From UHGV virus genome UHGV-0200643: a stretch of DNA of 38,172 nt; one strand, written 5' to 3'. Position 1 is the stretch's first letter, and each line of letters begins with the position of its first letter. The translations under genes were made by a program, and so were the position numbers. This DNA is from a virus. The notes beneath the pieces were generated by a model, which ran no database searches, had not been told where the DNA came from, and saw only the letters and a list, made by a program, of their open reading frames with translations. Shown here in pieces: positions 3,023 to 10,931 of this stretch.

Positions 3023-4567
3023 ATGGGAGTATTCCAAACGATTAAAAGTATATTCAAGAGAGGAGTTGATAGCGTGAATATGAGTTTTACTGGTCGTGAT
3101 ATTGCGAAGGTAACAGATCATCCCAAAATAGGGATTGATTCAAGAGAATACGATCGGATTGCTAGAAACTTTAGATACTATTCCAATCTATTTCCTGATA
3201 TACAATATCGTAATTCATACGGGGAAACACAGAAAAGAGAATTTAAGTCCTTAAATATCACCAAGACAGCTTCTAGACGGTTAGCAAGTATCATCTTTAA
3301 TGAGAAGTGCAAAGTAGCATTAAAAGACAAGGAGGAGCAAGCAGAAGCTTCAAAAAGCATTCAATCAGCGGTAGAGTTCCTAGATAAAACACTTTATGAC
3401 AACAATTTCTACAATTTGTTTGAAATGAACCTTGAAAAAGGGATTGCTGCAGGCGGTTTTGCTATGCGGCCGTATGTTGACGGTGACAAGATCAAAATTT
3501 CATGGATCCGTGCAGATCAATTTTATCCGTTACGCTCTAACACAAATGAAGTAAGTGAATGCGCCATTGCAACAAAGACCATTCAAACAGAAGGTGACGT
3601 GAATTACTACTATACGTTGCTAGAATTCCATGAATGGCAAGATGATAAGTATGTTATCAGTAATGAGCTTTACAAATCTGATAACGATAATATCGTTGGT
3701 AAACAAATTTCATTAGCGGTTCTTTATCCTGATTTGGCTGAAACTGTCACATTAGAAGGTTTAAAGAGACCGCTTTTTGCGTATTTCAGAACACCTGGTG
3801 CGAATAACAAATCGTTAGAAAGTCCATTGGGCGCTGGTATTGTCGATAACTCAAAAGAGATTCTGGACACAATCAACACAACGCATGATCAATTTGCTTG
3901 GGAAATTCAGTTAGGTCAACGACGTGTTGTTGTTCCTGCAGAGTTTCTTAGAGTAGATCAATTGCGCCCGCCGCTGTTCGACACTGATCAGAATGTTTTT
4001 GCTGGTGTGTATGGTGCTGAAAATATCGGGGTTAAGGATATCACTACACCAATTCGGACGGTTCAATATAAGGATGCTATTAGTCATTTGATCAAAGAGT
4101 TTGAGGTGCAAGTTGGTTTATCTGTTGGCTCAATGAACTATGCAGACGATGGAATTAAAACAGCAACAGAAATTGTTTCTAACAATTCCATGACGTATCA
4201 AACCCGTTCAAGCTATTTAACGATGGTTGAAAAAGTTATTAACGAACTAATCCATTCTATTTTTGAGTTAGCAGGATATGGAGAAATGTTCGAAAGTGAA
4301 AAGCCTCTGTTCTCGATTGATTATGAGAGTTATTTAGTCACAGTGAGCTTTGAAGACGGTCTATTCGTTGATCGTAACAAACAACTAGAGAATGATTTAA
4401 AAGCTGTAACAGCTGGCGTAATGCCAAAGAAACAATTTCTTATCCGCAATTACAATTTAAACGAAGATGAATTAGAAGATTGGTTAGCTGCATTGAAAGA
4501 AGAAATGCCCGAAGCGGGATCAACCGAACGGCGTAGTCAAGATGCCTTATTCGATTTAGGTGATTAA
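3023..4567 (+). CDS. Portal protein (SPP1 gp6-like)
   Basis: About 514 aa, directly after terL, of the size and position expected for a portal. The start is probably ATG 3023 with AGGTGAG RBS; the track ORF begins at 3008. Confidence 0.8.
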   Translation: MGVFQTIKSIFKRGVDSVNMSFTGRDIAKVTDHPKIGIDSREYDRIARNFRYYSNLFPDIQYRNSYGETQKREFKSLNITKTASRRLASIIFNEKCKVALKDKEEQAEASKSIQSAVEFLDKTLYDNNFYNLFEMNLEKGIAAGGFAMRPYVDGDKIKISWIRADQFYPLRSNTNEVSECAIATKTIQTEGDVNYYYTLLEFHEWQDDKYVISNELYKSDNDNIVGKQISLAVLYPDLAETVTLEGLKRPLFAYFRTPGANNKSLESPLGAGIVDNSKEILDTINTTHDQFAWEIQLGQRRVVVPAEFLRVDQLRPPLFDTDQNVFAGVYGAENIGVKDITTPIRTVQYKDAISHLIKEFEVQVGLSVGSMNYADDGIKTATEIVSNNSMTYQTRSSYLTMVEKVINELIHSIFELAGYGEMFESEKPLFSIDYESYLVTVSFEDGLFVDRNKQLENDLKAVTAGVMPKKQFLIRNYNLNEDELEDWLAALKEEMPEAGSTERRSQDALFDLGD

Positions 4568-5706: not shown

Positions 5707-5714
5707 TAATTTTA

Positions 5715-5744
5715 AGCTTAGCAAATGCTAGGCTTTTTATTTTG
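5715..5744 (+). terminator. Intrinsic terminator after the minor capsid gene
   Basis: AGCTTAGCA / TGCTAGGCT stem with one G-U pair, followed by TTTTTATTTT. Confidence 0.45.
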
Positions 5745-5807: not shown

Positions 5808-6392
5808 ATGAATGAAATGAAACGAGAAGAATTAAAAGAATTGGGCTTAACAGATGAACAGATTGGATCAGTAATGGCTTTACACGGTGTAACTGTAAAC
5901 GAACTGAACAGCAAGGTGTCTACCGCGGAACAGCAAGCGACTCAGTATCAAGAACAGTTAGACAAAAATCAAAGTGAGCTTGATGACTTTAAAGCAAAGT
6001 CTAAAGGTAACGAAGATTTAGAGCAGCAAGTGACTGATTTACAAACGCGTCTTGACCAAAATAAAACCGATTCTGAACAACAGATTGCAGATATTAAGAA
6101 ATCATCAGCAATCGACTTAGCCCTAACACAAGCAGGGGCAAAGAATATTAAAGCTGCTAAAGCTTTAATAGATGGCGAGTCACTGGAATTAGCAGAGGAT
6201 GGATTAAAAGGATTAGATGACCAACTGGCCGCGCTTAAAGAAAGCGACGGTTATTTATTTGGCCAATCTGAACAGGTTCCACCTAATCCCGACGGTAAGA
6301 AGGCTACCTTTTCTGGGAATGCTAGTTCTGCGCAAAACGTTGAAGAAGATGCTTTTGCTAAAGCATTAGGAGTTATGCCAAACAAAAATTAA
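5808..6392 (+). CDS. Scaffolding protein
   Basis: 194 aa, highly charged with Q/E-rich coiled-coil, immediately upstream of the major capsid gene. ATG 5817 may be the true start given SD spacing. Confidence 0.6.
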   Translation: MNEMKREELKELGLTDEQIGSVMALHGVTVNELNSKVSTAEQQATQYQEQLDKNQSELDDFKAKSKGNEDLEQQVTDLQTRLDQNKTDSEQQIADIKKSSAIDLALTQAGAKNIKAAKALIDGESLELAEDGLKGLDDQLAALKESDGYLFGQSEQVPPNPDGKKATFSGNASSAQNVEEDAFAKALGVMPNKN

Positions 6393-6410
6393 ATTTGGAG
6401 GGAATAAAAT

Positions 6411-7283
6411 ATGGCAATTAATTACATTACAAAAGACAATGGGATTTTCGATCAGAAGATCACTCAAGGATTGTTAACGACGATCTTAGGTATTCCACAA
6501 GTTGAATTAGTGAACGGTGGTAAATCATTTACATTGACTACTATTTCAACTTCTGGTTTAAAAAACCACACACGCAACAAAGGATTTAACAGTGGAACTT
6601 ACGGAAATGACAAAAAAGTTTATACAATGGGACAAGATCGTGACGTTGAATTCTACATTGATAAACAAGATGTTGATGAAACAAATCAAGATTTGGCAGT
6701 AGCTAACATCTCAAATGTATTTATTACAGAACACGTGCAACCTGAAATTGATGCTTATCGTTTCTCTACTTTAGCTGCAGGAGCAGGCAAGACTAAGGAA
6801 GAAACAATTACTGAGAAAAATGCTTATTCTGCAATTAAAGCTGCTATTTTACCAGCACGTAAATTCGGCCCGCAAAACCTAGTAGCGTTTGTATCAACAA
6901 CAGTAATGGATGCACTAGAACGATCTACTGAGTTCACTCGCAACATTACCAATCAAAACGTTGGACAGACTGCTTTAGAATCCCGTGTTACTTCTCTTGA
7001 CGGTGTGTTGCTAGTCGAAGTTTGGGACGATACTCGTTTTAAAACGAAATACAATTTTTCAGATGGATACGTTGCTACCTCTGATGCAAAAGACATCAAT
7101 ATCTTAGTTGTCGCTAAACAAGCAGTTATCCCCGTGGTTAAAGAAAACACCGTCTTCTTGTTTGCGCCAGGCGAACATTCTCAAGGCGACGGGTACTTGT
7201 ACCAAAACCGTCTGTACCACGATTGCTTTATTAAAGAAAAACAAAAAGAAGGTGTATCTGTCTCTTTGGTCCCAAAAGGGTAG
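6411..7283 (+). CDS. Major capsid protein (0-frame product)
   Basis: 290 aa. Strong RBS GGAGGG. Located between the scaffold and connector genes. Confidence 0.7.
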   Translation: MAINYITKDNGIFDQKITQGLLTTILGIPQVELVNGGKSFTLTTISTSGLKNHTRNKGFNSGTYGNDKKVYTMGQDRDVEFYIDKQDVDETNQDLAVANISNVFITEHVQPEIDAYRFSTLAAGAGKTKEETITEKNAYSAIKAAILPARKFGPQNLVAFVSTTVMDALERSTEFTRNITNQNVGQTALESRVTSLDGVLLVEVWDDTRFKTKYNFSDGYVATSDAKDINILVVAKQAVIPVVKENTVFLFAPGEHSQGDGYLYQNRLYHDCFIKEKQKEGVSVSLVPKG

Positions 7284-7546
7284 ACCCATCCGGCGTAACT
7301 TTGAATAAAACAACAGCTACGCTAACGGTGGGAGCAACAGAAACATTGTCTGCTACTGTAGCACCGACTGATTCAACAGATAAATCAGTTCAATTCACTT
7401 CTAGCGATGTGACGGTTGCAACAGTAACGCCAGTGCAAGGAAAGGTTACTGCTATTAAAGTAGGAGCTACGACGGTCACAGCGAAAACCGTAAATGGCAA
7501 AACTGCTACTTGTGAAATCACAGTAACTGCACCAAGCGAAGGATAG
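7271..7546 (+). CDS. Big_2 (bacterial Ig-like) C-terminal extension of the major capsid protein, reached by a -1 programmed frameshift at C_CCA_AAA (7271-7277)
   Basis: The -1 frame is open from 7235 to 7546. The slippery heptamer X_XXY_YYZ ends 3 nt before the capsid stop TAG (7281-7283). The extension encodes TLTVGATETLSATV...KSVQFTSSDVTVATV...VTAKTVNGKTATCEITV, a Big_2-like pattern. Confidence 0.6.
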   Translation, partial: PKRVDPSGVTLNKTTATLTVGATETLSATVAPTDSTDKSVQFTSSDVTVATVTPVQGKVTAIKVGATTVTAKTVNGKTATCEITVTAPSEG

Positions 7547-7567
7547 TTTAGTAGCTATCCTTTTTTT
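7541..7567 (+). terminator. Intrinsic terminator after the capsid-Big_2 unit
   Basis: GGATAG-TTTAGTAG-CTATCC followed by TTTTTTT. Confidence 0.5.
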
Positions 7568-7585
7568 AATTGAAAGGAGGCAACT

Positions 7586-7984
7586 ATGAGCTATCTCACA
7601 CACGATGAATATAAAGAACTTGGATTTAGTAAAGTATCTGATGAAAAAGTATTCGACGAATTAGAACAATACGCTGAGCGCCAACTAAATCGTGTTACCG
7701 GTGATTTTTACATGAAAAACTCTTTGTCAGATGATACTTTCAAGTATCGTGTAGACAAGTTCAAAATCGCAATGGCTGTTCAAATTGAATACCTTAATTC
7801 CGTTGGAGTTACATCATTATCAGAGATTTTAAGTGCTTCGCCTGCCAGTGTTAGTGTCGGTCGTATGCGCATTGAATCTGGTAGTACAAATGCAGCAACA
7901 GTTGGCAGAACGATGGTTGCAACAGAGGCTTATAACGAGTTGATCTATACTGGACTTCTTTACAAGGGAGTTGACTATCGATGA
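7586..7984 (+). CDS. Head-tail connector (gp6-like / DNA-packaging protein)
   Basis: 132 aa. RBS AAAGGAGG. Canonical position after the capsid gene. Confidence 0.5.
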   Translation: MSYLTHDEYKELGFSKVSDEKVFDELEQYAERQLNRVTGDFYMKNSLSDDTFKYRVDKFKIAMAVQIEYLNSVGVTSLSEILSASPASVSVGRMRIESGSTNAATVGRTMVATEAYNELIYTGLLYKGVDYR

Positions 7985-8328
7985 TTCCTTTAATGCCAAA
8001 AGAACTTTGTAACCAGTTAATTACTTTGAGGCTGCTAGATGGTCATGACAAATGGCAAAAACCTGTCTTTTCTGAACCAATCACGATTAATCATATGATC
8101 TTTCAACCTCAAACAGTTTACAGTGGGAGTAATAACAATCGGCAAGTGGTAGCGAATGCTATCGCTTTTTTGTTTGCAGGTGTGTCTGACCCAATGCCAA
8201 CAATAACTAAGAAACATGTTGGTTCAGAGATTGATTTTGAGGGTGAGACTTACACTATCACAACAATCGTTGATAACCGCAATCCTTACAGCAATGAAGT
8301 TTATTCATATGAGCTGGAGGTGCTGTAA
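7981..8328 (+). CDS. Head closure / head-tail adaptor protein
   Basis: 115 aa, with overlapping start and stop codons with its neighbours, in the connector module. Confidence 0.45.
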   Translation: MIPLMPKELCNQLITLRLLDGHDKWQKPVFSEPITINHMIFQPQTVYSGSNNNRQVVANAIAFLFAGVSDPMPTITKKHVGSEIDFEGETYTITTIVDNRNPYSNEVYSYELEVL

Positions 8329-8663
8329 TGCTGCATGTTAAGGTCGAAAAAAACGGTGTAGATCGTAAGTTGTCGGTGGTGAATATCAATTCAGCACTGT
8401 ACTACATGACTGCTCAAATGCATCCAGACATGAACTTATATGCGCCAAAACGTCATGGGCATTTAAGAGACAAATCATTTGTGAGTAAGAACCGAATCAC
8501 GTATGCAGTGCCGTATGCACAAGCGCAGTTTAGAGGGTTTGTTAATGGGAGTAGAGTCAGAAACTATACGACTCCAGGTACCAGCCGTCGTTGGGATCTT
8601 AGAGCAAAAGCGAATCACATGGATGATTGGCGTAGAGCGTTTATCAAAGGGGGGAACTTGTAG
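8328..8663 (+). CDS. Tail component (HK97 gp10-like)
   Basis: 111 aa, translationally coupled, in the connector module. Confidence 0.45.
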   Translation: MLHVKVEKNGVDRKLSVVNINSALYYMTAQMHPDMNLYAPKRHGHLRDKSFVSKNRITYAVPYAQAQFRGFVNGSRVRNYTTPGTSRRWDLRAKANHMDDWRRAFIKGGNL

Positions 8664-9055
8664 TGGATTTATGGGAACGATTATCTGACTCGATAGATTC
8701 TATTCAAGGTCTCCCAATGCCATGCTCGATGGGATTTCTTAATGGAGAAGACACGCTTTGCGTCTATTCTATGCCAGGCAGTCGAACAGTTGAAGAATAC
8801 TTTGACGGTACGAAAGAACGAGAAATGCTGTATGAAGTCGGATTTAACACGACAGACCAAGAAAAAGCCAATCAAACTCTTTGGCTCATATCAAATCATT
8901 TGGACGAACTCTCAACTCTGAAATCAGAAGATGGGAGCTTCGTCTTTTTAGGTATCGAAATAAGTGAGACTCCTTTTGTTAGTGAACAGGACGTGCAAGG
9001 GAACTCAACTTATCTATTAGGTATCAAAATCACTATTCATCAATTCAAAAATTAG
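8663..9055 (+). CDS. Tail completion / tail terminator protein
   Basis: 130 aa, immediately upstream of the major tail protein. Confidence 0.45.
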   Translation: MDLWERLSDSIDSIQGLPMPCSMGFLNGEDTLCVYSMPGSRTVEEYFDGTKEREMLYEVGFNTTDQEKANQTLWLISNHLDELSTLKSEDGSFVFLGIEISETPFVSEQDVQGNSTYLLGIKITIHQFKN

Positions 9056-9067
9056 GAGGAAACACAA

Positions 9068-9538
9068 ATGGCAGAAAACAATAAAGAATTTTTACTGAAC
9101 TTTAAAAACAAATTGGAAATCGATACAGCGGGGAATACTGATATTGCAAATGTGGCTAGTGCGTCGTTTGCGGTACTTGGAGCAGGTATCACAACTATTA
9201 CTCCGGCTGCTGCAGATACTACTGATGCTTCTGCTTACTACGATGGTGGAGGATTCACTGACTCTACTGTAACTGGTAAAAACATCACATTCGCTGTAGC
9301 TGGACATCGTGTATTTGGTGACGCTGCGCAGGATTATGTTGCCGCTAAATTCTTATCTATTGGTGATGAATTGCGCACATTGGCTCAATGGACCGATGCA
9401 AAAGGGAATAAGGTACAAGCTGTGGTTACATTGACGGCTATCGTACCTTTTGGTGGAGCTGCGAATGCTAAGCAAACATTCAGCTTTACGATGGCGTTTA
9501 ACGGTAAACCAGTAACGGTACCAGCGGTGGGGGAGTAA
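9068..9538 (+). CDS. Major tail protein (0-frame product)
   Basis: 156 aa. Strong RBS AGGAGG. Ala/Thr/Gly-rich and beta-rich. Located before the tail chaperones and TMP. Confidence 0.65.
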   Translation: MAENNKEFLLNFKNKLEIDTAGNTDIANVASASFAVLGAGITTITPAAADTTDASAYYDGGGFTDSTVTGKNITFAVAGHRVFGDAAQDYVAAKFLSIGDELRTLAQWTDAKGNKVQAVVTLTAIVPFGGAANAKQTFSFTMAFNGKPVTVPAVGE

Positions 9539-9795
9539 TTAGCCCCTCAAATGTATCACTTAATAAAACGACATTAACACTTAATGTAGGGGCAGAAGAG
9601 ACACTAATTGCAACAGTATCACCAGCTGACGCTGACGACAAAACTGTTGCTTGGAAATCTAGCGATATAACAATAGCCACTGTTGATACAGCTGGTAAAG
9701 TATCAGCTGTTAAAGAGGGCACAGCAGAGATTACAGTAACAACAACTACTGCAAGTAAAACTGCGAAGTGTACTTTGACAGTTACTGCTGTTTAA
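9529..9795 (+). CDS. Big_2 (Ig-like) C-terminal extension of the major tail protein, reached by a -1 frameshift on the GGGGG run (9529-9533)
   Basis: The -1 frame is open from 9508 to TAA at 9793-9795 and has no ATG. It encodes SLNKTTLTLNVGAEETLIATVSPADADDKTVAWKSSDITIATVDTAGKVSAVKEGTAEITV...CTLTV, a paralog of the capsid extension. Confidence 0.55.
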   Translation, partial: GGVISPSNVSLNKTTLTLNVGAEETLIATVSPADADDKTVAWKSSDITIATVDTAGKVSAVKEGTAEITVTTTTASKTAKCTLTVTAV

Positions 9796-9833
9796 AGGTT
9801 AACCTTGATAGGTTAGCCTTTTCTATTTTATTT
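9794..9833 (+). terminator. Intrinsic terminator after the tail-Big_2 unit
   Basis: AAAGGTTAACC-TTGATA-GGTTAGCCTTT, an 11-bp stem with one G-U pair, followed by TCTATTTTATTT. Confidence 0.55.
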
Positions 9834-9846
9834 AGGAGGAAAATTA

Positions 9847-10296
9847 ATGGCAATTAACAATATTATCGACTTAGATGCTAAATTAACACTCACTAAAACA
9901 GTGAAAATCGCTGGTAAGAATTATGACATTTCAATTTCCGACGAGATTGATCGTGCGCTTTCTAATTACGCGAATATTGATGTAACAGTTCAATTGAGAG
10001 ATATAGCATCCAAACTTGAGAAGTTAGATGGTGTGGAAACTACTACTGCTGATCAATATAAATCATTTACTCAAGAAGAAATGATCTCAATGAGGAATGG
10101 CGCTTTAGCGACGCTTGACGTTGTTTTAGGAGAAGGAGAAGGTCAACGTATTTACGATCATTATGGGCAAAGTACGAAAGCCGTTAATACCGTTATTGGT
10201 CTCCTTCGAACAGAATTGGATAAAGTAATGGTCGAACGCAAAAAAGCTGCCGACAAGCATTACAGTAATCGGCATAAAAACAATAAAAAGAAGTGA
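9847..10296 (+). CDS. Tail assembly chaperone (putative)
   Basis: 149 aa between the MTP and TMP genes. RBS AGGAGG. Confidence 0.4.
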   Translation: MAINNIIDLDAKLTLTKTVKIAGKNYDISISDEIDRALSNYANIDVTVQLRDIASKLEKLDGVETTTADQYKSFTQEEMISMRNGALATLDVVLGEGEGQRIYDHYGQSTKAVNTVIGLLRTELDKVMVERKKAADKHYSNRHKNNKKK

Positions 10297-10301
10297 TTTA
10301 A

Positions 10302-10931
10302 TTGTTTGATTTAATTGATGATCTTGAAACAACTATTTTGATTGAAGATTACGAAATCCCTTTGGATTTATCTTTTGATACAGTGCTGAAATTTTACGAA
10401 CTATTGGAGGACGATCGTTTACAATCCTTCGAGAAAATATATAAAGCTTTTGATCTATTTTATTTTGGAGATGAAACGCTGTCCAAAACCTTTACTTTCG
10501 AGCAAAAGAGTAAGGCTGTTGAAGATATCAGCAATTATATTCAGAGAAATCCATACGGAAATGAAGAGAGCGGAGATGCTGGGTTCGGAGGTGTTGAACC
10601 TGAAAAATTGTACTCCTATACGCAAGATGCAGGGGCAATTTACGCCTCTTTTTTTTCTGATTACGGAATTGATTTGCTGAAAGAACGAGGAAAGATGCAT
10701 TACATTACGTTCAAATCACTGCTGGCCGGATTAAGTGATAAAACACAATTTCAACGAATTCTATCTATTCGATCTAGAACAGTTAGCGGATTAGAAGGAG
10801 AATCACTGACAAATCTTTTGGAGTTGCAACAGTATTATGCTTTGGAGTCCGAAAAAACTGTGGATAACTTAGATAATCAATTAGGCAGCATGTTCGATAT
10901 GTTAGCTGCTCAAGCACAATCAAATAAATAA
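10302..10931 (+). CDS. Tail assembly chaperone-like acidic protein (putative)
   Basis: 209 aa, very acidic, with a TTG start, directly upstream of TMP. No G/GT-type frameshift link to the upstream gene was found. Confidence 0.4.
   Translation: MFDLIDDLETTILIEDYEIPLDLSFDTVLKFYELLEDDRLQSFEKIYKAFDLFYFGDETLSKTFTFEQKSKAVEDISNYIQRNPYGNEESGDAGFGGVEPEKLYSYTQDAGAIYASFFSDYGIDLLKERGKMHYITFKSLLAGLSDKTQFQRILSIRSRTVSGLEGESLTNLLELQQYYALESEKTVDNLDNQLGSMFDMLAAQAQSNK

What the first reader, a model, noticed from the sequence alone, without database searches (positions are those of the whole stretch)
9508..9833. Second, independent -1 frameshift appends a paralogous Big_2 domain to the major tail protein
After the MTP stop (TAA 9536-9538), the -1 frame is open from 9508 to 9795 and encodes a second Big_2 domain. 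It has no ATG at all, which explains its absence from the ORF track. A G5 run (9529-9533: GTG_GGG_GAG) allows a single-tRNA(Gly) -1 slip from GGG to GGG just before the stop. The capsid and tail extensions are clear paralogs (TLTVGATETLSATVAPTDSTDKSVQFTSSDVTVATV vs TLTLNVGAEETLIATVSPADADDKTVAWKSSDITIATV). Both are followed by intrinsic terminators (9794-9833 here). Having the same decoration on both head and tail via two different slippery-site types is noteworthy and suggests a role in surface adhesion.
Basis: partly seen in the sequence, partly recalled or inferred. Interest (0 to 1): 0.7.

Follow-up and report, generated by a model that had tools for sequence, protein, structure and literature searches.

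The report
Frameshifted Ig-like extension of tail protein
A phage tail-tube gene very probably makes a second, longer protein carrying an Ig-like surface domain when some ribosomes slip back one base at a run of Gs just before the stop codon; the signal is real and conserved, but the trick is already known from Lactobacillus phage A2 and others.

Summary
The major tail protein (MTP) gene (9068-9538) is followed in the -1 frame by an 86-codon extension with no ATG or GTG. It ends at TAA 9793-9795 and encodes a Big_2 domain (Pfam E 5e-16).

Forty-nine related loci, mostly Enterococcus prophages and IMG/VR contigs, keep the same layout: heptamer, then a stop codon directly after it, then the -1 Big_2 ORF. 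The heptamer is G_GGG_GAG in most, G_GGG_AAG in some and the canonical G_GGA_AAG in one. The extension is under purifying selection only in the -1 frame (pN/pS 0.34, against 1.0 and 1.7). One relative carries the same domain fused in frame.

A stem begins 6 nt after the heptamer, and its synonymous sites are frozen across relatives. The terminator (9794-9821) and the paralogy with the capsid extension (55% identity) are confirmed.

- The junction is PAVGE|VISPS or PAVG|GVISPS, not ...GGSIS.
- A two-tRNA slip is at least as likely as a single tRNA-Gly slip.
- The long form is 24.8 kDa, not about 26 kDa.

This is not new in kind. Lactobacillus phage A2 carries the same -1 Big_2 extension ORFs behind both head and tail genes, and both shifts are reported as demonstrated experimentally. 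GGGGGAA-type heptamers are widely annotated in mycobacteriophages. It is a new member of a known kind, of modest interest.

The parts
9068..9538 (+). Major tail (tube) protein gene, short form: 156 aa, 16.1 kDa, including stop TAA 9536-9538
   Evidence: phrog_820 'major tail protein' E 3.6e-50. It lies between head-tail connector genes and the Gp15/tape-measure genes. Close homologues are named 'phage tail tube protein' in Enterococcus genomes.
9529..9535 (+). Slippery heptamer G_GGG_GAG, the proposed -1 shift site
   Evidence: The same position holds G_GGG_GAG, G_GGG_AAG or G_GGA_AAG in 49 related loci. In some relatives the -1 frame is open for only 19 nt before the stop, which leaves this heptamer as the only candidate site. 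The GGGGGAA-type motif has precedent.
9536..9541 (+). 0-frame stop codon TAA plus TTA: the 6-nt spacer between the heptamer and the stem
   Evidence: A stop (TAA, TGA or TAG) directly follows the heptamer in every locus that carries the heptamer. In the Big_2-bearing loci the stop is followed by TTA.
9542..9593 (+). Putative 3' stimulatory structure. Outer stem GCCCCU 9542-9547 pairs with AGGGGC 9588-9593, stacked on inner hairpin 9571-9577/9581-9587. A small alternative hairpin lies at 9549-9553/9557-9561.
   Evidence: MFE -12.7 kcal/mol, z -2.9, 0 of 200 shuffles fold as well. The outer stem is 96% paired across 31 distinct sequences but shows no covariation. Its synonymous sites are frozen: Gly is always GGG, Ser is AGC and Pro is only CCC or CCT, while other Gly and Pro columns vary. 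The GCCC...GGGC arms are kept in the L007 lineage although the coding sequence between them differs. The small hairpin has 2 covarying pairs.
9535..9795 (+). -1 frame extension: 86 codons 9535-9792 plus stop TAA 9793-9795. It gives a 242-aa, 24.8-kDa long form.
   Evidence: Translation. pN/pS is 0.34 in this frame against 1.04 and 1.72 in the other two frames, over 38 unique sequences. It is collinear with the natural in-frame fusion P0042, 61% identity over 235 aa.
9550..9774 (+). Big_2 (bacterial Ig-like, group 2) domain within the extension
   Evidence: PF02368 E 5.3e-16, residues 15-89 of the translation that starts at 9508. PHROG hits to Ig-domain structural proteins and to C-termini of major tail proteins. 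47% identical to the phage A2 tail extension.
9794..9831 (+). Intrinsic-terminator-like hairpin plus T-rich tail, placed after the extension and before the next gene (ATG 9847)
   Evidence: 12-bp stem with a 4-nt loop, followed by TCTATTTTAT.
6411..7283 (+). Major capsid protein gene (290 aa), the sister case
   Evidence: phrog_422 'major head protein' E 2.9e-99.
7271..7277 (+). Canonical slippery heptamer C_CCA_AAA of the capsid gene
   Evidence: Read directly from the sequence. It is the same heptamer as at both phage A2 sites. A stem starts 7 nt downstream: -17.2 kcal/mol, z -2.2.
7277..7546 (+). -1 frame capsid extension: 89 codons plus stop TAG 7544-7546, containing a Big_2 domain. The long form is 378 aa, 40.8 kDa.
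   Evidence: PF02368 E 1.5e-12. Lengths and masses. The terminator-like hairpin 7538-7563 overlaps its end.

Best explanation
This is a programmed -1 ribosomal frameshift at the 3' end of the major tail protein gene.

Most ribosomes terminate at TAA 9536 and make the 156-aa tube subunit. A fraction slip back one base on G_GGG_GAG (9529-9535). They are probably paused by a stem that starts 6 nt downstream (GCCCCU 9542-9547 with AGGGGC 9588-9593). These ribosomes read on in the -1 frame to TAA 9793 and make a 242-aa subunit with a C-terminal Big_2 Ig-like domain.

The most likely mechanics is a two-tRNA slip. tRNA-Gly moves from GGG to GGG. tRNA-Glu moves from GAG to GGA with one G:U pair. This gives the junction ...PAVGE-VISPS.

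Short and long forms would then co-assemble, so that a subset of tube subunits display the domain on the tail surface. The capsid gene does the same at C_CCA_AAA.

Basis of each step:
- Shown here: sequence layout, conservation, frame-specific selection, domain identity.
- Inferred: the slip itself, its efficiency, the role of the stem, co-assembly, and a weak carbohydrate or surface-adhesion function. The last two rest on analogy with SPP1 and on the hypothesis of Fraser et al. 2006 as summarised in PMC8718954.
For: 1. A start-less -1 ORF encodes a bona fide Big_2 domain.
2. 49 related loci (38 unique sequences), from Enterococcus genomes and IMG/VR contigs, keep heptamer + immediate stop + -1 Big_2 ORF with the same frame offset. 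The MTPs of the genome loci are 84-95% identical to the window's, and those of the IMG/VR loci reach down to about 79%.
3. The heptamer varies only as G_GGG_GAG, G_GGG_AAG and the canonical G_GGA_AAG. The MTP C-terminus stays GE or GK while the linker before it varies.
4. pN/pS is 0.34 (pS 0.47) in the -1 frame, against 1.04 and 1.72 in the other frames.
5. Relative P0042 has MTP and Big_2 fused in frame, collinear through the junction and with neither heptamer nor stop.
6. A stem begins 5-6 nt after the heptamer in three sequence lineages: z -2.9 (window), -2.2 (L007), -3.8 and -2.3 (L057, L065). Synonymous sites in the stem arms are frozen.
7. The terminator and the next gene's ribosome-binding site follow the extension, not the 0-frame stop.
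8. Precedents. In phage A2 both the head and tail genes carry -1 frame Big_2-like ORFs behind C_CCA_AAA, and the frameshifts are reported as required (PMC5009743). The GGGGGAA motif with G:U re-pairing is discussed in PMC10885494. SPP1 makes short and long MTP forms at 3:1 (PMC8718954).
Against: - There is no protein-level evidence for this phage or its relatives.
- G_GGG_GAG is not a canonical X_XXY_YYZ heptamer. A-site re-pairing needs a G:U pair at the middle codon position.
- The outer stem shows no compensatory changes: it is either invariant or broken. It is mismatched in L025, L029 and L038.
- A fold that includes the G-run is no better than shuffled sequence (z -0.6).
- The efficiency of the shift is unknown.
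Confidence: 0.88

Rival explanations
1. The site is the same, but only one tRNA slips. Peptidyl-tRNA-Gly would slip from GGG (9530-9532) to GGG (9529-9531) before GAG is decoded, giving ...PAVG-GVISPS. Alternatively, tRNA-Glu would slip in the P site while the stop codon waits in the A site ('shifty stop'), giving ...PAVGE-VISPS.
For: All heptamer variants keep GGG at positions 1-3, so tRNA-Gly can always re-pair. GGG is the rarest Gly codon in the window's genes, 40 of 324. A stop codon directly follows the heptamer in every locus that carries the heptamer, and 'shifty stops' are known at phage MTP genes (PMC4759559).
Against: If the A-site codon were irrelevant it should drift, yet positions 5-7 are only GAG or AAG and position 6 is invariant A in 36 of 36 sequences. 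Position 6 is a synonymous site in the -1 frame, and the overall pS is 0.47. One locus holds the canonical two-tRNA heptamer G_GGA_AAG.
Confidence: 0.3
2. The Big_2 ORF is translated on its own, by initiation or termination-reinitiation at a non-canonical start. An example is ATT 9538, with the G-run acting as a Shine-Dalgarno-like sequence. The product would be a free 85-aa Ig-like protein.
For: GGGGG (9529-9533) could pair with the anti-Shine-Dalgarno core, and ATT lies 4 nt downstream (read from the sequence).
Against: - There is no ATG, GTG or TTG near the 5' end in any relative.
- The spacing is short.
- The G-run is weakened to GGGAAAG or GGGGAAG in some relatives with no loss of the ORF.
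- A free domain has no evident way to attach to the virion.
- An in-frame fusion exists in a relative, and A2 carries the same -1 extension ORF behind its tail gene, reported to be expressed as a frameshift fusion.
Confidence: 0.04
3. There is no recoding. The arrangement would be a sequencing or assembly error in a G homopolymer, or a recent frameshift mutation that inactivated an originally in-frame MTP-Big_2 gene. A further variant is transcriptional slippage on the G-run.
For: Homopolymer runs are prone to indels. An in-frame relative exists.
Against: - The same frame offset and immediate stop recur in 49 loci from separate genome and metagenome records, with three different heptamer sequences and all three stop codons.
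- The extension remains under purifying selection.
- G5, and G3A3 in L005, are too short for efficient RNA-polymerase slippage. This last point rests on established knowledge, not on a test here.
Confidence: 0.03

Closest known systems
Lactobacillus casei phage A2: -1 frameshifts in the major head (ORF5) and major tail (ORF10) genes (Garcia 2004 and Rodriguez 2005, as cited in PMC5009743)
   Same: Both the head and the tail major proteins are followed by a start-less -1 frame ORF of about 85-100 aa encoding a Big_2-like domain. The A2 tail extension is 47% identical to this one, E 3e-20. The capsid heptamer C_CCA_AAA is identical. The stop lies within one codon of the heptamer.
   Different: A2 uses C_CCA_AAA at both sites with one codon before the stop. 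Here the tail site is G_GGG_GAG with the stop directly adjacent. The MTP bodies show no detectable sequence similarity (BLASTP E 15). The A2 tail stimulator is reported to be a pseudoknot (PMC5009743), whereas here only a stem or bipartite helix is predicted.
Bacillus phage SPP1 gp17.1/gp17.1* and lactococcal 936-group MTP-TpeX
   Same: The major tail protein is made in short and long forms by recoding at its 3' end. The long form adds an Ig-fold or carbohydrate-binding decoration to the tail surface. The SPP1 ratio is 3:1, and the SPP1 extension is dispensable for infection (PMC8718954; PMC4759559).
   Different: The 936-group shift is a +1 shift at a CCC-stop 'shifty stop', described as similar to SPP1's. 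The added domains are FN3 (SPP1) and a carbohydrate-binding module (936 group), not Big_2.
Listeria phages A118, A500 and PSA
   Same: Both capsid and tail genes are recoded to give C-terminally extended forms (PMC5009743). The window's tail module also carries the A118-type Phage_Gp15 protein (PF06854).
   Different: The tail-gene shift is +1 in all three Listeria phages. Here it is -1.
GGGGGAA 'fivetwo' heptamer of mycobacteriophage tail-assembly-chaperone (G/GT-type) frameshifts
   Same: An all-purine heptamer starting with five Gs. After the slip, tRNA-Glu re-pairs with GGA through a G:U pair (PMC10885494).
   Different: Different gene (chaperone, not tube protein) and different host clade. 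The last base is G, not A. Those cases are mostly annotations, not experiments.
Lambda gpV and T5 pb6: in-frame C-terminal Big_2 on the tail tube protein
   Same: The end product is the same: a tube subunit with a C-terminal Big_2 domain on the outside of the tail (PMC8718954). Relative P0042 is such an in-frame version of this very family.
   Different: There is no recoding, so every subunit carries the domain.

Membership tests
Programmed -1 ribosomal frameshift site | An overlapping -1 frame ORF without its own start codon, continuing past the 0-frame stop | tested here: met
   The -1 frame is open 9508-9792. It has no in-frame ATG or GTG, only TTG at 9775.
Programmed -1 ribosomal frameshift site | A slippery heptamer X_XXY_YYZ that lets both P-site and A-site tRNAs re-pair in the -1 frame | tested here: inconclusive
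   G_GGG_GAG is non-canonical. The P site re-pairs perfectly, but the A site needs a middle-position G:U pair. The homologous position is the canonical G_GGA_AAG in L005. The GGGGGAA type is widely annotated.
Programmed -1 ribosomal frameshift site | A 3' RNA structure 5-9 nt downstream of the heptamer | tested here: met
   The stem starts 6 nt downstream, z -2.9. Stems at the same spacing occur in three lineages. Synonymous sites in the stem arms are frozen. There is no compensatory covariation in the main stem, so support is moderate.
Programmed -1 ribosomal frameshift site | The arrangement is conserved and the trans-frame region is under coding selection across relatives | tested here: met
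   49 loci, 38 unique sequences. pN/pS is 0.34 in the -1 frame only.
Programmed -1 ribosomal frameshift site | Two protein products with a trans-frame junction peptide | not testable with these tools
   This needs proteomics or a reporter assay.
Big_2 (PF02368) bacterial Ig-like domain | Pfam HMM score above the gathering threshold | tested here: met
   58.8 bits against 22.8, E 5.3e-16, covering profile positions 4-78 of 79.
Big_2 (PF02368) bacterial Ig-like domain | Ig-like beta-sandwich fold | tested here: inconclusive
   The single-sequence AlphaFold2 model had mean pLDDT 34.9 and is unusable. Sequence matches to Big_2-containing PDB chains reach E 2.6e-12.
Siphovirus major tail (tube) protein | Sequence membership in an MTP family, and a position between head-tail connector genes and the chaperone/tape-measure genes | tested here: met
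   phrog_820 E 3.6e-50. Gene order. The homologue in phage phig1e is annotated as major tail protein.
A2-like dual head + tail -1 frameshift Ig decoration | Both the major capsid gene and the MTP gene carry -1 frame Big_2 extensions | tested here: met
   Capsid C_CCA_AAA plus Big_2 (E 1.5e-12); tail G_GGG_GAG plus Big_2. A2 compared.
A2-like dual head + tail -1 frameshift Ig decoration | The carrier proteins are homologous to those of A2, and the slip site is the same | tested here: not met
   The MTP bodies are not similar (E 15). The tail heptamer differs. So this works like A2 but is not an orthologous locus. The Big_2 module itself is shared at 47% identity.

The most novel reading that the evidence does not exclude
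G_GGR_RAG followed directly by a stop codon, and then by a GCCC-initiated stem, could be a distinct, portable -1 recoding cassette in phages of Enterococcus and related lactic acid bacteria. The same heptamer + stop + hairpin is kept in lineages where the -1 extension is only about 24 aa (L007, L048, L049, L057, L065) and is followed by a separate small gene. The cassette might therefore set the stoichiometry of different tail-surface appendages, including short docking peptides for separately encoded decoration proteins. Its mechanics might depend on the adjacent stop codon (a -1 'shifty stop') rather than on the classical two-tRNA slip.
Probability: 0.15. Interest if true: 0.5.

Novelty: new member of a known kind. 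Interest (0 to 1): 0.3.

Why it matters
The result corrects annotation. In this phage and in at least 49 related Enterococcus prophage and IMG/VR loci, about 260 nt now left unannotated after the tail tube gene are coding, and the tube protein has a 24.8-kDa Ig-decorated long form.

It adds a well-conserved natural series of non-canonical heptamers: G_GGG_GAG, G_GGG_AAG and G_GGA_AAG, each directly followed by a stop. These could serve to test G:U-tolerant re-pairing in Gram-positive ribosomes.

It supports the view that Ig-like modules move between unrelated phage structural proteins and are expressed by whatever recoding the landing site permits. It does not change any concept.

Tried and rejected
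- Megablast of 6300-10000 against the phage collection found nothing. The nearest isolated phage by MTP is Lactobacillus phage phig1e (62% aa), which lacks the extension.
- Folding 9529-9620 with the G-run included gave z -0.6. It is uninformative because the G-run competes for the CCCC arm. I refolded from the stop codon onwards.
- RNAalifold on the 38-sequence alignment gave only a weak consensus of -8.4 kcal/mol and paired the slip-site Gs with CCC. I rejected this as a stimulator because the ribosome occupies those bases.
- The single-sequence AlphaFold2 model of the 242-aa long form had pLDDT 34.9 and is unusable. No fold search was run.
- A PDB sequence search with the MTP profile gave only spurious hits to designed 'Pizza' proteins.
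- A full-text search for 'GGGGGAG' with 'frameshift' returned only human-genetics papers.
- The two primary A2 papers and the SPP1 commentary are not held, and one literature search failed on term length. I inspected the A2 genome directly instead.
- I checked for a lambda G/GT-type chaperone frameshift between 9847-10296 and 10302-10931. The -1 and +1 frames both contain stops there, so there is none.
- The window contains no tRNA genes, so there is no phage-encoded tRNA-Gly or tRNA-Glu to modulate the shift.
- The length of -1 frame extension past the stop, measured over all window ORFs, is confounded by downstream genes that happen to lie in that frame. I used only the stop-frequency estimate from that call.
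Full report
**1. What is in the sequence**

The ORF at 9068-9538 encodes a 156-aa protein ending ...PAVGE, followed by TAA at 9536-9538. It matches the PHROG family phrog_820 'major tail protein' (E 3.6e-50). It lies between head-tail connector genes and a Phage_Gp15 (PF06854) gene followed by a 1552-aa tape-measure-sized ORF.

The -1 frame is open from 9508 to 9792 and ends at TAA 9793-9795. It holds no in-frame ATG or GTG. The only start-like codon is TTG at 9775, six codons before the end. Its translation matches Pfam Big_2 (PF02368) at E 5.3e-16, 58.8 bits against a gathering cutoff of 22.8.

The G5 run lies at 9529-9533. The 0 frame reads GTG GGG GAG TAA. The -1 frame reads GGT GGG GGA GTA ATT AGC CCC. 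From the stop-trinucleotide frequency of the window, an open stretch of 86 codons has a probability of about 0.004, before the domain match is even considered.

The terminator-like hairpin at 9794-9821 with its T-rich tail is found by the scan. So is the one at 7538-7563 after the capsid extension.

The junction peptide reads G-V-I-S, not G-S-I-S. The long form is 242 aa and 24.8 kDa, not about 26 kDa.

**2. The sister case in the capsid gene**

The capsid gene (6411-7283, phrog_422, E 2.9e-99) ends ...GTC CCA AAA GGG TAG. The canonical heptamer C_CCA_AAA sits at 7271-7277. The -1 frame continues to TAG 7544-7546 and encodes a second Big_2 domain (E 1.5e-12). The two extensions are 55% identical over 85 aa (E 9e-25). 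The claims of 'paralogous' domains and 'two different slippery-site types' are both correct.

**3. Comparative evidence**

This is the decisive part of the analysis.

- No near-identical phage exists in the GenBank phage collection. The nearest isolated phage by MTP is Lactobacillus phage phig1e (62% aa). Its MTP ends in a short low-complexity tail with no -1 ORF.
- A protein search found many close homologues, annotated as tail tube proteins of Enterococcus avium, E. dongliensis, E. hailinensis and others. Nearly all of those retrieved at roughly 79% identity or above end in GE or GK, although the linker residues before that vary.
- I fetched 15 loci from bacterial genomes and 80 from IMG/VR.
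- In 49 of these loci (38 unique nucleotide sequences) the MTP stop is followed by a -1 frame ORF of about 88 codons that aligns almost without gaps to the window's extension.
- At the homologous position the heptamer is G_GGG_GAG in most loci. It is G_GGG_AAG in seven (L025, L029, L031, L038, L039, L041, L044). In E. devriesei (L005) it is the canonical lambda-type G_GGA_AAG.
- A stop codon follows the heptamer directly in every locus that carries the heptamer, and TAA, TGA and TAG all occur.
- In several loci the -1 frame is open for only 19 nt before the stop. The shift must then happen within the last six codons, and the heptamer is the only slippery element there.
- Pairwise Nei-Gojobori counts over the extension give pS 0.47 and pN 0.16 (ratio 0.34) in the -1 frame. 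The ratios are 1.04 and 1.72 in the other two frames. Third codon positions of the -1 frame are the variable ones (78 of 86 vary).
- One relative (P0042, 259 aa) carries the same MTP and the same Big_2 domain fused in frame. It is collinear with the conceptual frameshift product: 61% identity over 235 aa in a single alignment across the junction. Its junction reads GCG AAG GGA GTA ACA AGC, with neither heptamer nor stop.
- Other relatives carry an in-frame FN3 domain instead (P0113, P0117).

Together these results exclude a sequencing error, a recent pseudogene and a chance ORF.

**4. Stimulatory structure**

Folded from the stop codon onwards, the window RNA forms a stem GCCCCU (9542-9547) with AGGGGC (9588-9593). 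This stem stacks on an inner hairpin (9571-9577 with 9581-9587). The energy is -12.7 kcal/mol, z is -2.9, and none of 200 shuffles folds as well. The stem starts 6 nt after the heptamer, which is the expected spacing.

Across 31 distinct sequences the outer stem is 96% paired. It shows no compensatory changes, and it is mismatched in L025, L029 and L038.

Its synonymous sites are nevertheless frozen.
- The Gly codon in the 3' arm is GGG in 36 of 36 sequences, although GGG is the rarest Gly codon in the window's genes.
- The Ser codon in the 5' arm is AGC in all 33 sequences that have Ser there.
- The Pro codon is only CCC or CCT, both of which pair with G.
- Other conserved Gly and Pro columns in the same domain use three or four synonyms.

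In a lineage whose extension is unrelated and only 24 aa long (L007), the GCCC and GGGC arms persist around a new 8-bp helix (-19 kcal/mol, z -2.2). In another such lineage (L057, L065) a different GCCGUC/GACGGC hairpin starts 5 nt after the heptamer (z -3.8 and -2.3).

A small hairpin at 9549-9553/9557-9561 has two covarying pairs but is weak.

I rate a 3' stimulator as moderately supported. Its exact shape is open. The capsid site has a comparable stem starting 7 nt after its heptamer (-17.2 kcal/mol, z -2.2).

**5. Mechanism**

The best-supported reading is a -1 programmed ribosomal frameshift on 9529-9535. Three variants of the mechanics remain.

- (a) A two-tRNA slip. tRNA-Gly moves from GGG to GGG and tRNA-Glu from GAG to GGA with a G:U pair at the middle position. 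In the variants, tRNA-Lys moves from AAG to GAA or AAA. Junction: PAVGE|VISPS.
Junction: PAVG|GVISPS.
- (c) A slip of tRNA-Glu in the P site while the stop waits in the A site. This gives the same junction as (a).

I favour (a) or (c) over (b), for three reasons.
- Positions 5-7 of the heptamer are only GAG or AAG.
- Position 6 is invariant A even though it is a synonymous site in the -1 frame.
- One locus holds a canonical two-tRNA heptamer.

The GGGGGAA 'fivetwo' motif, with exactly this G:U re-pairing argument, is described for about a thousand mycobacteriophage chaperone frameshifts (PMC10885494). Only mass spectrometry of the junction can decide between the variants.

**6. Rivals**

- Independent initiation at ATT 9538, with the G-run acting as a Shine-Dalgarno-like sequence, is conceivable. 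It is disfavoured by the short spacing, by the heptamer variants that weaken the G-run, by the in-frame relative and by the A2 precedent.
- Transcriptional slippage is unlikely on G5 or G3A3. This rests on established knowledge, not on a test here.
- The window encodes no tRNA.

**7. Comparison with known systems**

- The review PMC5009743 states that Lactobacillus phage A2 requires two -1 frameshifts, one for a head component and one for a tail protein. It also states that Ig-like extensions are repeatedly added to phage structural proteins by -1 or +1 frameshifting, as in T3 and in Listeria A118, A500 and PSA.
- I inspected the A2 genome directly. Both ORF5 (head) and ORF10 (tail) end ...C CCA AAA GCG + stop and are followed by -1 ORFs of 99 and 89 codons.
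- The A2 tail extension is 47% identical to the one here (E 3e-20). The two MTP bodies are not detectably similar (E 15). The locus therefore works like A2 without being orthologous to it: the Ig module is shared and the carrier is not.
- SPP1 makes short and long MTP forms at 3:1, the long form through a translational frameshift, and the extension is dispensable (PMC8718954). Lactococcal 936 phages use a +1 CCC-stop shift, described as similar to SPP1's, to add a carbohydrate-binding extension (PMC4759559).
- Lambda gpV and T5 pb6 carry the Big_2 domain in frame.

**8. Verdict**

The finding is real and its interpretation is essentially right. The frameshift is not proven at the protein level, but the comparative support is about as strong as sequence data alone can give.

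It is a new member of a known kind. The modestly new elements are the conserved non-canonical heptamer series with a directly adjacent stop, its spread through Enterococcus prophages that are currently annotated with only the short tube protein, and its persistence in lineages with very short extensions.

Interest is about 0.3.

Noticed in passing
L007 4453-4740 (also L048, L049); L057 3953-4325 (also L065): These relatives keep the G_GGG_GAG heptamer, the immediate stop and a downstream hairpin. However, the -1 extension is only about 24 aa (GGVVSPAVVGKITPTADGAVIELT or GGVTAVYDDGATYDGKAIYK). It is followed by a separate small gene with its own ribosome-binding site and ATG (65 aa in L007; 97 aa and repeat-rich in L057), inserted between the MTP and chaperone genes. 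The recoding signal seems to outlive the Big_2 domain.
   Followed up: partly
P0042 (L098 211-990); P0113 and P0117: Within the same MTP family, some members carry a Big_2 domain fused in frame (P0042). Others carry an FN3 domain (PF00041) fused in frame (P0113, P0117). More distant members (phig1e, Lactiplantibacillus, Pediococcus) end in short low-complexity tails. C-terminal decoration is highly plastic in this family.
   Followed up: partly
window 9847-10296 and 10302-10931: The two genes between the MTP and the tape-measure gene sit where a G/GT-type chaperone pair would be expected. They are a phrog_10257 protein and a Phage_Gp15 (PF06854) protein with a TTG start. They show no frameshift overlap: both alternative frames carry stops between 10294 and 10302.
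   Followed up: yes
window 5714-5735, 8144-8167, 10631-10649: There are further terminator-like hairpins with T-tails in the structural module. One lies just upstream of the scaffold gene. Two lie inside ORFs (7981-8328 and the Gp15 gene). In total 7 were found, against 3.1 +/- 1.7 in shuffles.
   Followed up: no
L001 (phig1e) 3462-3998; several Bacillus phage records: Homologues of this tail tube protein are annotated as 'minor capsid protein', 'capsid protein' or 'major capsid protein' in several GenBank phage and bacterial records. This mis-annotation appears to have propagated.
   Followed up: no
L097 (phage A2) 5538-5834 and 7912-8178: In the RefSeq record of phage A2 the two frameshift products reported in the literature are not annotated as joined CDS. 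Only the short forms (ORF5 and ORF10) are listed, which leaves gaps of about 300 nt after each gene.
   Followed up: partly
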